In this document: piece after piece, positions 3,001 through 6,000 of the stretch | How the letters are laid out: each line of letters opens with the position of its first letter | How positions within the stretch are numbered: position 1 is the first letter of the stretch | Origin: Zootoca vivipara | Taxonomy: Eukaryota | Length of the DNA stretch: 64,000 nt | Assembly: GCF_963506605.1 (NCBI RefSeq) | Contig: NC_083288.1 | Coordinates: forward strand, 38,626,001 to 38,690,000 | Direction of reading: 5' to 3' | Made by a program: the position numbers

Positions 3001-6000
3001 TAAAAAAAACCCCGAAACCTTCCTCCTAAGTATGACCCCACCAGACATACCTAAAGATAGAGTAAATATCCTGCTGTACACATGTGCAGCGGCAAGGGTA
3101 TTAATTGCGTCAAAATGGAAAGGAGCTAGCTTACCAACGATTCAGGAATGGCAAGAAAAGTTAATTAAATATTTAAAAATGGCAAAATTAACGGCAATAA
3201 TTAGACACGTTCCGAGGCAAAAAAAAATAGGCGAATGGAAGTATGTTCAAGATTACTTGGAGAGAGAAGACATAGAGGTTAATTTAGCGAAATACTTAGA
3301 TTAGAACTTAAAAGGAGAAAATAAAATAAATCTAAAGTGAAAGTTTGATTTGGAACAGATCAGGAGGAACAGCAAGAAGGAGAGAAGAAACAAAGGAACA
3401 CGTATTGTAAATAACAGGAAGTGATTTTTTTTTTCCTTTTCCTTTTTCTATTTTACTCGGTTGTAGCTTTGTATATGCTTTTTCTTGTTTTTTACAAATT
3501 TACTTTGTATATAACTTGATTATTTTCCACTACTTTTTGCCCTTTTTTTCTTTGTTACGTATGTTTTTTAAAAATTGAATAAAGATTTGAAATTCAAAAG
3601 CGTGATCCCTCTTTTCACGTGCTTTGCTTCATTTTTCTTATTCCCTTTCACCCCATCCCAAATTTATTCCACACTCTCCCTCATTTCTCTCTTCTTTTTT
3701 CACACACACCCGCCCGGTTCTACCGGTATATCTGCAATTCCTTTTCTGGGCCCATTATCACCTGTACTTTCTTGACATGCCCACCTGTTTCATTCACTGC
3801 CACCAGTCGTCCATCATAATTTCACCCCTCATCTTTCAGGCTTCTGTCCGCCATGAAACTCCACCTCTCGAGTGCTCTCGCATCTTCCCACCTGAGGCAT
3901 CTCCCAGACCGGCAGGGATTGCTGTATAAGAAGAGCATCCGCACAGCCTCCTACCGGCCATGCTGGTGCGAGCTTTGGGGCAATATCCTCTTCTGCCGAG
4001 ACCAATCAACAGATCGGGGTCATCTCCGGCTCATCATCCTGGAAGGTTGCACCGTTGAGCTGCAGGAGTCTGCATCTGAACCGCACACCTTTGAGATTTC
4101 CTACCCCGATGGCGTACCTGGCGCCCGATCCTACAAAATGGCGGCCGAGAGCCAAGAAACCATGGAGGGTTGGGTGCGAGCTCTCAGCACGGCAGGTTTC
4201 AGTTACCTCCGAGCTTTGGTGACGGAGCTGGAGGGACAGTTTCAGATGTTGAAGCACCAGCAGCCTCCCAAATGTGAAGGACAATTGAGACACCTGGCAA
4301 GAGACTTGAAACACCCCACTACAAAACCGGCGGTGGAAGCTGGTGTCTTCAGCATGGGTTTTGGCCAGCTCCATCAGCAATTTGGAGAAGATATTGTGAG
4401 GCTGAGGCTGAAGTGGCAGGAGAAGCAAGGCAAGCAGCAATCAGAGAATGAGTCCTTGATTGATTTTGAGTAGGGCAATTCAGGCCATGCCAAATGTTTG
4501 GACCGTGCCTCGTGAGCTTTGGGAAGTCTAGAATCTATGAAGTTTAAGGCAAGAATCTGATTAATGCCTTTGAAACATATGCCAGCACATTGACATTGAT
4601 TTTTACATGCTAAAGGAGAGTTTAATAAATGTGTATTTTTAAACAAAGAAACCTACCAGCCTCAAGAATTGTTTTGTTCACCATAGTACCGTGTTTCTCC
4701 AAAAATAAGACACCGTCTTATATTCTTTTTTCCTCAAAAAAAAAACACACTATGGCTTATTTTCAGGGGGTGTCTTATTTTTTTCCTCCTCCTCCTCCTC
4801 CTGCCGCGGCCGGCATTGCTGCTGCGCCTATCACTATGTCTTATTTTCGGGGTATGGCTTATATTCCTTGAATGCTTAAAAATCCTGCTATGGCTTATTT
4901 TATGGGTATGTCTTAAAATATGTGAAACAGGGCAGTAGCCGCCATACCTGATACAGTGAGAAAGGAGGTTGACCTCAGTAATGGTATATTTTGGCAAGCG
5001 CTTATTGTGGGTGGAGTCTGCAGCTGTGCCAACCTCCTGAGTGTGGAACCAAAACCATTCCCCAAAGTGAAAGCTTGCCTTCTTTGCCGTTATTTGGTCC
5101 AGCCCATGCATTTAATGGTGTGATGAAAACAGCATTGGCCTAGTCTCTGGTATTTGACTGGTGGGTCAGGACCCTTGCCTTAGCCTTAAGGATGCATTGC
5201 CACAACAGCACTATTGCAATATGGTAAAGTAACAATAAAAATGAAGCAGCAGGTACCCACCATGTCTGGCTTAAAAGTTGACTGCTATCAAAACCAGGAT
5301 TGCCTGGACAGTGGTGGCTCAGCAGAGGCCGCAAGCAGAAGCTTCCCTCAGATTAACTGTAAAGAGATCCTGTTAACTGGAAGAGACGGGCCCTTCCGAA
5401 CACAAAGTGTGCATCTACCTCTAAACTATGGTCCTTCCAATGGTGTCATCTTCCCCAACCCACTATAACACACACACACACACCTTTTTATCAATGATTT
5501 CTAGGTAGTTGCCTACGACTCTCATCATAAAATCATTCCTCCACCACAACTTTAAAACCTAAAAGGATCTTTGTTCCCAACAACAGTTTGAAGAGGCACT
5601 GTCTGTATTTCGATTTTCCAGTTCTGCTCTTGCACCCTTAAAGTATCCATGTGTAATTTTACTTTATGTTCATTTGCTCCCTGGCTCAACATCATTCGTG
5701 GCTGCCCAACATGGCACTGGTCCACCTCTGGCTACACAAACCCACTGATTTTCCTCTCAGATCAACAACGAAGATTCAAAAGAGCCAGGGTAGTGGCTGG
5801 TTGTGGGGGGGGGGGACGGTATTCAAATCTCCATTCCACCATGAAGTCCGCTAAAGTAACCATTTTCCAAGCTCTGTCTCAGTCCCATCTATTATGCAGG
5901 ACTGCCCCAAGTATGTCATCCATGTTTCAATATGTGGCAAACATATTGATCTTAAAACTACCAACAGGCTTTCCCAATCATGGCAGAGTTGAGAGGGATG

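What the first reader, a model, noticed from the sequence alone, without database searches (positions are those of the whole stretch)
3853..4473. Possible third PHETA (sesquipedalian) ohnologue at the 16p11.2-equivalent locus
Seen in sequence: an intact, divergent PH + coiled-coil + F&H protein next to TBC1D10B and MYL11. Established: humans have only PHETA1 (12q24, near MYL2/SH2B3/ATXN2) and PHETA2 (22q13), and 16p11.2 carries the paralogues MYL11/SH2B1/ATXN2L but no PHETA gene. Inference: this may be a whole-genome-duplication paralogue retained in reptiles and lost in humans, i.e. an additional OCRL/INPP5B adaptor.
Basis: partly seen in the sequence, partly recalled or inferred. Interest (0 to 1): 0.65.

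Follow-up and report, generated by a model that had tools for sequence, protein, structure and literature searches.

The report
Third PHETA adaptor gene in lizard
This lizard gene is an intact member of an old, unnamed third branch of the PHETA/sesquipedalian family of endocytic adaptors, a branch found from sharks to most mammals that seems to have decayed in primates.

Summary
The ORF at 3853..4473 (+) is real: 206 codons, PH domain (Pfam E 2.6e-13), a helix, then an F&H-type motif (FGQLHQQFG, aa 170-178). The window comes from a lacertid lizard (94% identity to Podarcis raffonei 'sesquipedalian-1-like'), not from a human.

In a careful tree of 78 named proteins the ORF falls in a clade (99/89) separate from PHETA1+PHETA2 (100/99). 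AU tests reject joining it to PHETA2 (p 0.0005) or to PHETA1 (p 0.0001).

The clade is not reptile-only. It holds sharks, ray-finned fishes, coelacanth, lungfish, amphibians, turtles, squamates, monotremes, marsupials and many placentals. Primate entries are truncated or lack a PH hit.

Linkage to MYL11 is old: teleost members are merged with mylpf gene models.

The clade lacks the PACSIN2 motif of PHETA1 (0 of 154). It carries its own C-terminal LIDF/LIDL motif (127 of 154; none in PHETA1/2), which resembles a clathrin box.

Zebrafish 'pheta2' probably belongs here; this is inferred, not tested.

WGD origin and OCRL binding remain inferred. No paper found names this lineage.

The parts
3827..3839 (+). 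Polypyrimidine tract ending in AG (ctcatctttcag|g). It is a candidate 3' splice acceptor 13 nt before the ATG, implying an upstream non-coding exon.
   Evidence: Read directly. Splice use is inferred, not shown.
3853..4473 (+). Complete coding exon of the PHETA-like ('sesquipedalian-1-like', clade A) gene, 206 codons plus stop.
   Evidence: ORF. (94% identity over 100% of the length to the Podarcis raffonei 206-aa protein). (tree).
3910..4191 (+). PH domain (aa 20-113).
   Evidence: PF00169, E 2.6e-13. (strands 20-97 plus helix 101-112). (PH-domain matches in the PDB).
4198..4257 (+). Helix after the PH domain (aa 116-135), at the position of the predicted coiled coil of IPIP27A/B.
   Evidence: L122 and L126 are invariant. 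Coiled-coil status was not tested.
4360..4428 (+). F&H-motif helix (aa 170-192). The core FGQLHQQFG is at aa 170-178 (nt 4360-4386).
   Evidence: motif. (F170, L173, H174 invariant in 41 of 41). (helix 170-192).
4456..4470 (+). C-terminal LIDFE (aa 202-206). This motif is specific to clade A and fits the clathrin-box pattern L-phi-x-phi-[DE].
   Evidence: The clathrin-box consensus is recalled, not from a call. Binding was not tested.
4624..4629 (+). AATAAA, a candidate polyadenylation signal 150 nt after the stop codon.
   Evidence: Read directly.
9978..25011 (-). Neighbouring RabGAP-TBC gene, convergent with the PHETA-like gene. Exons were seen at 13254-13556, 17097-17333 and 18275-18511, with a long N-terminal exon at 24091-25011 and a C-terminal exon near 9978-10739.
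   Evidence: ORFs. (PF00566, E 5.9e-19 and 5e-10). Assignment of 18275-18511, 24091-25011 and 9978-10739 to this gene is by eye only: the first two had no Pfam hit and the third was not searched. The name TBC1D10B was not tested.
37319..37627 (+). Two exons of a fast-skeletal myosin regulatory light chain (MYL11/MYLPF type): 37319-37396 and 37523-37627.
42010..45135 (-). QPRT-type gene (exons 42010-42258, 43136-43360, 44461-45135).
   Evidence: (PF01729 and PF02749 on the 44461-45135 exon). The other two exons are assigned by eye.
52964..54921 (+). MazG-like / DCTPP1-type gene.
   Evidence: (PF12643, E 2.4e-7).
58042..60923 (-). Septin gene. The paralogue was not resolved.

Best explanation
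The ORF is the intact single coding exon of the lizard orthologue of a third, ancient lineage of the PHETA / sesquipedalian / IPIP27 family, here called clade A. Databases label its members 'sesquipedalian-1-like'.

Clade A separated from the PHETA1+PHETA2 lineage before sharks and bony vertebrates diverged. It has stayed linked to the fast-skeletal light-chain gene MYL11/MYLPF.

The protein most likely works as PHETA1/2 do. Its C-terminal F&H helix docks onto the ASH-RhoGAP-like module of the 5-phosphatases OCRL and INPP5B. The PH domain and other parts connect the phosphatase to endocytic machinery.

It differs from PHETA1 in lacking the PPPxPPRR PACSIN2 site. It has instead a C-terminal LIDF/LIDL motif specific to the clade, which may bind clathrin.

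Shown here: the ORF, its domains and motifs, its clade placement, its wide taxonomic spread and its linkage to MYL11. Inferred: OCRL/INPP5B binding, any clathrin contact, expression, and origin by whole-genome duplication.
For: ORF and PH domain.

Relatives: 35 of 51 hits form a close group at 52-94% identity. Identity then drops to about 40% for canonical sesquipedalian-1.

Careful tree (78 named rows, 5 invertebrate outgroups): clade A 99/89 (49 rows), PHETA1+PHETA2 100/99 (23 rows), window sister to Podarcis 100/99.

AU tests: amniote clade A with PHETA2 rejected (dlnL 57.9, p 0.0005). Amniote clade A with amniote PHETA1 rejected (dlnL 72.6, p 9.5e-5).

Clade A is recovered at 97/87 from the 136 PH+helix columns alone, so it does not depend on the C-terminal motifs.

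The same species carry clade A alongside another paralogue. With PHETA1: Hemicordylus, Sceloporus, gar, Polypterus, Sciurus. With PHETA2: platypus, Crotalus adamanteus, Callorhinus, Eumetopias.

Motifs: the F&H core is present in 146 of 154 clade-A proteins, the C-terminal L-phi-x-phi motif in 127 of 154, and PPPxPPRR in 0 of 154. PHETA1 has the C-terminal motif in 0 of 18 and PPPxPPRR in 12 of 18. PHETA2 has the C-terminal motif in 0 of 20.

Linkage: MYL11-type exons lie 33 kb downstream on the same strand. In teleosts, clade-A proteins are filed as isoforms of mylpfb or the skeletal light chain (P0287, P0296, P0343, P0352). Siganus P0349 is a PH + F&H + EF-hand fusion model whose EF-hand part matches the window's MYL11 exons.

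Gene structure: an AG acceptor lies 13 nt before the ATG and an AATAAA lies 150 nt after the stop.

Literature (passages read): the F&H motif is the OCRL/INPP5B binding site and the F224A change in IPIP27A abolishes binding (PMC3046058; PMC6743453).
Against: No expression data and no binding data exist for this protein.

Pairwise identity to clade-A proteins outside reptiles (38% to Bos, 38% to gar) is no higher than to PHETA1 (36-39%). Clade membership therefore rests on the tree model plus shared motifs and linkage. Clade A also evolves faster than PHETA1 (67% against 83% for the same lizard pair), so long-branch effects cannot be fully excluded.

Inside clade A the topology is not the species tree: sharks group with tetrapods, and lobe-fins with ray-fins.

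In 10 of 10 squamates aligned, the two basic residues before the invariant Trp of the PH domain (YQRRW elsewhere) are replaced (YRPCW in the window). The PH domain's ligand may therefore have changed.

Placentals lack the C-terminal motif (0 of 17), so that motif is dispensable in some lineages.

PHETA1 and PHETA2 were seen in other squamates, not in this genome. The snake 'sesquipedalian-2' model P0117 is a poor gene model.
Confidence: 0.8

Rival explanations
1. Clade A is really two old paralogues. One is kept by ray-finned fishes, coelacanth and lungfish. The other is kept by sharks and tetrapods. On this reading the lizard gene is a fourth family member and is not the orthologue of the teleost (zebrafish-type) gene.
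For: In one search clade A splits into a fish/lobe-fin group (95/80) and a shark+tetrapod group (99/96), which is not the species tree. With PHETA1 and PHETA2 this would give the four members expected after two genome duplications.
Against: The AU test does not reject all bony-vertebrate clade-A rows forming one clade with sharks outside (dlnL 6.2, p 0.2). Both groups share the C-terminal LIDF/LIDL motif. Both lie next to MYL11/mylpf. No species in the set carries one gene of each group.
Confidence: 0.12
2. The gene is a recent, lineage-specific copy (a retrocopy or translocated duplicate) of PHETA1 or PHETA2 that diverged fast in reptiles.
For: The coding region is a single exon. The protein evolves faster than PHETA1. 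A LINE reverse-transcriptase fragment lies just upstream (1447-3000).
Against: AU tests reject union with PHETA1 or PHETA2. Orthologues are found from sharks to mammals. Linkage to MYL11 is shared with teleosts. A splice acceptor lies just before the ATG.
Confidence: 0.03
3. The gene is the true reptile orthologue of mammalian PHETA2, moved to another locus.
For: Like mammalian PHETA2 it lacks the PPPxPPRR motif (PMC7272357 passages).
Against: Platypus, fur seal and sea lion each have both a 'sesquipedalian-2' and a clade-A protein. Crotalus adamanteus has both as well. The AU test gives p 0.0005. PHETA2 groups with PHETA1 at 100/99.
Confidence: 0.02
4. The ORF is open but no longer functional in this lizard (an unexpressed relic).
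For: There is no expression evidence. Basic residues in the squamate PH domain are changed. The lineage has decayed in primates.
Against: The full-length ORF is 94% identical to Podarcis, rising to 97% over the PH+helix columns. F170, L173 and H174 and the PH core are invariant across 41 species. A start context, acceptor and poly(A) signal are present.
Confidence: 0.03

Closest known systems
PHETA1 (Ses1, IPIP27A, FAM109A)
   Same: Both have an N-terminal PH domain, a following helix and a C-terminal F&H helix with the same core FxxLHxx[FY]G. PHETA1 is the best-studied OCRL/INPP5B adaptor (PMC3046058, passages).
   Different: It belongs to a separate clade. The window protein is shorter (206 aa against about 250-295). 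It has no PPPxPPRR PACSIN2 site (0 of 154 against 12 of 18). It has an extra C-terminal LIDFE motif. Its locus differs: MYL11/TBC/QPRT rather than MYL2-CUX2-SH2B3-ATXN2 (PMC12898128, passages). It also evolves faster.
PHETA2 (Ses2, IPIP27B, FAM109B)
   Same: Same domain plan and F&H core. In mammals PHETA2 also lacks PPPxPPRR (PMC7272357, passages).
   Different: PHETA2 groups with PHETA1, not with this gene (AU p 0.0005). It lacks the C-terminal LIDF/LIDL motif (0 of 20). It occurs together with clade A in platypus, pinnipeds and a rattlesnake.
Zebrafish Pheta2 (zgc:153733)
   Same: The paper describes it as having a PH domain, coiled coil and F&H motif, lacking PPPxPPRR, being more divergent from human PHETA1/2 than Pheta1, and lacking synteny with either human locus (PMC7272357). 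This is the profile of teleost clade-A proteins, which are widespread (88 named teleost entries).
   Different: Membership in clade A is my inference. The zebrafish protein was not in any fetched set, so it was not placed in the tree. Teleost members are about 270 aa with a longer linker.
APPL1 and other F&H-motif proteins (Frabin/FGD4)
   Same: They share the short F&H helix that binds the OCRL/INPP5B RhoGAP-like domain (PMC6743453, passages).
   Different: They are unrelated in domain architecture and sequence. The resemblance is in the motif only.

Membership tests
PHETA / sesquipedalian / IPIP27 family | N-terminal PH domain | tested here: met
   Pfam PF00169, E 2.6e-13, aa 20-113. PH fold in the model. 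PH-domain matches in the PDB.
PHETA / sesquipedalian / IPIP27 family | Sequence homology to named family members | tested here: met
   In one search, 36 of the 51 hits carry a sesquipedalian name; 12 have no name and 3 have other names. One search gives 162 representatives at E <= 1e-10.
PHETA / sesquipedalian / IPIP27 family | Coiled-coil segment after the PH domain | tested here: inconclusive
   A helix is predicted at aa 116-135 with L122 and L126 invariant. No coiled-coil predictor was run.
PHETA / sesquipedalian / IPIP27 family | C-terminal F&H motif with obligate Phe and His | tested here: met
   FGQLHQQFG at aa 170-178. F170 and H174 are invariant in 41 of 41. The segment is helical in the model.
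PHETA / sesquipedalian / IPIP27 family | Physical binding to the OCRL / INPP5B ASH-RhoGAP module | not testable with these tools
   No OCRL sequence from this organism was available. A pull-down is needed.
PHETA1 orthologue | Nests in the PHETA1 clade | tested here: not met
   AU p 9.5e-5.
PHETA1 orthologue | PPPxPPRR PACSIN2-binding motif | tested here: not met
   Absent from the window protein and from 154 of 154 clade-A proteins.
PHETA1 orthologue | Neighbours CUX2 / SH2B3 / ATXN2 | tested here: not met
   The window's neighbours are TBC, MYL11-type, QPRT, DCTPP1-type and septin genes. No SH2 or LSm gene was noticed among the ORFs read.
PHETA2 orthologue | Nests in the PHETA2 clade | tested here: not met
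   AU p 0.0005.
Ohnologue (product of the early vertebrate genome duplications) | Duplication node lies after the invertebrate split and before the shark / bony-vertebrate split | tested here: met
   Both clades contain sharks and bony vertebrates, and invertebrates fall outside at 100/96. One lamprey protein is sister to clade A (100/91) on a long branch.
Ohnologue (product of the early vertebrate genome duplications) | The paralogues lie in paralogous chromosome blocks | tested here: inconclusive
   Clade A lies beside MYL11 (this window and teleosts). PHETA1 lies beside MYL2, with SH2B3/ATXN2 paralogous to SH2B1/ATXN2L on 16p (PMC12898128, passages). No genome-scale paralogon analysis was possible.
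Processed retrocopy | No intron, a poly(A) tail remnant, and a lineage-restricted insertion | tested here: not met
   A candidate acceptor lies 13 nt before the ATG. Orthologues run from sharks to mammals. Linkage is conserved.
Clathrin-box proteins (L-phi-x-phi-[DE], consensus recalled) | Motif match in a disordered region | tested here: met
   LIDFE forms the last five residues, in a tail with pLDDT below 50. Most clade members end in LIDLG or LIDFG, with Gly instead of an acid.
Clathrin-box proteins (L-phi-x-phi-[DE], consensus recalled) | Binding to the clathrin heavy-chain terminal domain | not testable with these tools

The most novel reading that the evidence does not exclude
Vertebrates began with three PHETA adaptors, not two. 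The third ('PHETA3', at the MYL11/TBC1D10B locus) is a functionally distinct OCRL/INPP5B adaptor. It replaces the PACSIN2 link of PHETA1 with a C-terminal clathrin-box-like LIDF/LIDL motif.

It survives from sharks to cows, dogs and platypus but has decayed in primates. The gene studied as zebrafish 'pheta2' is this gene rather than the orthologue of human PHETA2.

Animal models of PHETA/OCRL disease would then carry an adaptor that humans lack.
Probability: 0.3. Interest if true: 0.6.

Novelty: new member of a known kind. Interest (0 to 1): 0.5.

Why it matters
[quoted passage not shown] The field treats the family as a pair.

A third, ancient member present in most vertebrate model and livestock species has two consequences:

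- Orthology tables for the family would need correcting. The zebrafish pheta1/pheta2 double mutant may not model the human PHETA1/PHETA2 pair.
- Species may differ in how OCRL and INPP5B are wired to coat proteins.

The clade's private C-terminal motif gives a concrete, testable functional difference. The gene itself is already predicted automatically in many genomes as 'sesquipedalian-1-like', so this is a matter of recognition and naming rather than a new kind of system.

Tried and rejected
Homodimer prediction (residues 1-140, two copies) gave no answer, score 0.01 against a mark of 0.32. It counts neither for nor against dimerisation.

Placing zebrafish Pheta2 directly failed. Peptides translated from the two guide-RNA targets printed in PMC7272357 matched none of the fetched proteins. 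Searches for mylpfa/mylpfb chromosome or synteny statements found nothing usable (0 papers; 0 passages in one preprint).

PDB sequence searches could not tell which TBC or septin paralogue the neighbours are.

The profile search with Bos+Morone listed only the best 120 of 761 hits. These were nearly all teleost, so it could not show the mammalian spread, and a separate Bos query was needed.

Literature search for PHETA3, sesquipedalian-1-like, FAM109C, 'zgc 153733', IPIP27C and sesquipedalian-3 returned 0 papers. Among the 20 of 959 papers listed, none held both a PHETA term and 'ohnolog'.

Retrocopy and PHETA2-orthologue readings were considered and rejected (see the rivals).

No bird or crocodilian clade-A protein appeared among the named hits. 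No murid rodent appeared either. These absences are weak evidence.

Supplementary files of PMC7272357 and of the ohnologue database paper PMC13450315 were not seen and may bear on zebrafish synteny and on ohnologue status.
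Full report
OBSERVATION. An ATG-to-stop ORF of 206 codons lies exactly at 3853..4473 on the + strand. Pfam finds a PH domain at aa 20-113 (E 2.6e-13). PDB sequence matches are ordinary PH domains.

An AlphaFold2 model built on 41 relatives (mean pLDDT 73.5) shows the following:
- a PH fold (strands 20-97, helix 101-112);
- a helix at 116-135;
- a disordered linker at 141-166;
- a helix at 170-192;
- a disordered tail.

Foldseek returns only generic PH domains. The helix at 170-192 begins with FGQLHQQFG, which fits the F&H core FxxLHxx[FYW]G shared with PHETA1, PHETA2 and the invertebrate relatives.

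A pyrimidine tract ending in AG lies 13 nt before the ATG, and an AATAAA lies 150 nt after the stop. The window has no N.

WHOSE GENOME. The best hit is Podarcis raffonei 'sesquipedalian-1-like', 206 aa, 94% identical over the full length. I take the window for a lacertid lizard, not a human contig.

NEIGHBOURS.
- RabGAP-TBC exons lie on the - strand.
- An EF-hand exon pair on the + strand at 37319-37627 matches fast-skeletal regulatory light chain / MYL11 best (E 4e-28, against 4e-24 for cardiac MYL2).
- QPRT (-), a MazG-like DCTPP1-type gene (+) and a septin (-) follow.

That these genes lie together at human 16p11.2 is recalled, not from a call. TBC1D10B and SEPTIN1 were identified only to family level.

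RELATIVES AND TREE. In one search, 35 of 51 hits form a close group at 52-94% identity. Identity then drops to about 40% for canonical sesquipedalian-1. The exhaustive representative search and name look-ups brought in further proteins: caecilian, newt, frog, bichir, sturgeon/paddlefish, gar, teleost, coelacanth, lungfish, shark and ruminant.

A Bos query (84 hits at E <= 1e-15) found full-length proteins of about 190-210 aa in many mammals:
- hippo, hyena, pinnipeds, jackal and lion;
- moles and shrew;
- beaver, squirrel, marmot and kangaroo rat;
- tree shrew and armadillo;
- four marsupials, platypus and echidna.

Primate entries were short or without a Pfam PH hit: bonobo 175 aa, four colobines 125-158 aa, and lemur 317 aa with no PH hit.

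A careful IQ-TREE analysis of 78 named rows (LG+C20+F+G4 PMSF, 217 columns, five invertebrate outgroups) gave these groupings:
- vertebrates, 100/96;
- PHETA1+PHETA2, 100/99 (23 rows);
- one lamprey protein plus clade A, 100/91;
- clade A, 99/89 (49 rows, including the window).

AU tests reject amniote clade A joined with PHETA2 (p 0.0005) or with amniote PHETA1 (p 9.5e-5). With only the 136 PH+helix columns, clade A is still one side of a branch (97/87, in 96% of bootstrap trees).

Several species carry a clade-A gene together with PHETA1 (Hemicordylus, Sceloporus, gar, Polypterus, Sciurus) or with PHETA2 (platypus, Crotalus adamanteus, two pinnipeds).

RESULTS AGAINST, OR LIMITING.
- Pairwise identity to non-reptile clade-A proteins (about 38%) is no higher than to PHETA1 (36-39%). 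Clade A also evolves faster than PHETA1: 67% against 83% for the same lizard pair, and 57% against 75% for gar and bichir.
- Inside clade A, sharks group with tetrapods and lobe-fins with ray-fins. This could mean two old paralogues. However, the species-like arrangement is not rejected (p 0.2).
- The snake 'sesquipedalian-2' model is poor: it has a truncated N-terminus and an odd C-terminus.
- PHETA1 and PHETA2 were not checked in this genome.

CLADE-SPECIFIC FEATURES (named entries only).
- F&H core: present in 146 of 154 clade-A proteins.
- PPPxPPRR (the PACSIN2 site; PMC7272357 passages): 0 of 154 in clade A, 12 of 18 in PHETA1.
- A C-terminal L-phi-x-phi motif within the last nine residues (LIDFE in the window; mostly LIDLG or LIDFG elsewhere), by group: squamates 20 of 24, turtles 5 of 5, marsupials and monotremes 5 of 7, teleosts 85 of 88, other clade A 12 of 13, placentals 0 of 17, PHETA1 0 of 18, PHETA2 0 of 20.

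LIDFE fits the clathrin-box pattern L-phi-x-phi-[DE]. That consensus is recalled, and any clathrin binding is inference.

In 10 of 10 aligned squamates the YQRRW stretch of the PH domain reads Y-x-P-[CYR]-W or similar (YRPCW in the window).

CONSERVED LINKAGE. Four teleost clade-A proteins are filed by NCBI as isoforms of mylpfb or the skeletal light chain. Siganus P0349 is one 398-aa model with a PH domain (19-111), the F&H motif, and an EF-hand region (259-314) that aligns to the window's MYL11 exons. So the PHETA-like gene lies upstream of mylpf on the same strand in teleosts, as in this lizard.

PHETA1 lies near MYL2, CUX2, SH2B3 and ATXN2, and 16p carries ATXN2L and SH2B1 (PMC12898128, passages). 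Timing and paralogous neighbours fit a whole-genome-duplication origin. This was not tested at genome scale.

MECHANISM. By homology the F&H helix should dock on the ASH-RhoGAP-like module of OCRL and INPP5B. In IPIP27A the F224A change abolishes that binding and most membrane targeting (PMC3046058, passages; PMC6743453, passages). The absence of the PACSIN2 site and the presence of the clathrin-box-like tail suggest a different downstream partner. All of this is inference for the lizard protein.

WHAT IS KNOWN. The gene is predicted automatically in many genomes as 'sesquipedalian-1-like'. A full-text search for PHETA3, sesquipedalian-1-like, FAM109C, 'zgc 153733', IPIP27C and sesquipedalian-3 found 0 papers.

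Ates et al. 2020 (PMC7272357, passages) report several things about zebrafish pheta2 (zgc:153733, chromosome 3). It lacks synteny with both human loci, lacks PPPxPPRR, and is the more divergent of the only two zebrafish genes. That profile matches teleost clade A, so zebrafish 'pheta2' is probably this gene. I could not place it in the tree.

VERDICT. This is a real, intact gene and a member of a third ancient PHETA lineage. The WGD origin, the OCRL binding and the human loss remain inferred.

Noticed in passing
window 1447-3304 (+): A long ORF (518 aa stop to stop) has a weak reverse-transcriptase hit (RVT_1, E 1.3e-5, below Pfam's cut-off). A further 108-aa ORF follows it. Together they look like a non-LTR retrotransposon fragment ending about 550 nt upstream of the PHETA-like ATG, possibly inside its 5' intron or promoter.
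   Followed up: partly
window 40967-41374 (-): A 136-aa ORF ends in ...RTRWLDSVLEATNMSLTKLREAVQDRSAWRAMVHGVTKSRTRLND. From memory this resembles the C-terminal tail of BovB/RTE-type LINE proteins, known in squamates and ruminants. No tool was run on it.
   Followed up: no
window 3853-4473, aa 34-38; alignment A3: In all 10 squamate clade-A proteins aligned, the two basic residues before the invariant Trp of PH strand 2 (YQ[RK]RW in 30 of the other 31 sequences) are replaced (YRPCW in the window). This hints at a squamate-specific change in whatever the PH domain binds.
   Followed up: partly
table (mammalian relatives): Placental clade-A proteins have lost the C-terminal LIDF/LIDL motif (0 of 17), while monotremes and marsupials keep a form of it (LLDFG, LMEFG). 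Primate, bat and whale entries are truncated or lack a Pfam PH hit. No murid rodent, bird or crocodilian appeared among the named hits.
   Followed up: partly
(tree): PHETA2 was found only in amniotes in this sample (a rattlesnake, platypus and placentals). It sits in an unresolved polytomy with PHETA1 groups. The snake protein keeps the PPPxPPRR motif that mammalian PHETA2 lacks. Whether PHETA2 is an old ohnologue or an amniote duplicate of PHETA1 is open.
   Followed up: no
window 37319-37723 (+): The intron between two MYL11-type exons is open in the same frame as the exons, so the mechanical ORF (135 aa) reads through it. An ORF-based annotation would overcall this exon.
   Followed up: yes
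window 9491-10790 (both strands): Several overlapping ORFs of 230-333 aa lie on both strands in a G+C-rich, low-complexity stretch at what appears to be the C-terminal exon of the TBC gene. Most are likely chance ORFs of biased composition.
   Followed up: no
window 46785-47110: Dinucleotide microsatellites (GT/CA and GA/TC runs) show up as poly-Cys-Val and poly-Arg-Glu ORF translations.
   Followed up: no
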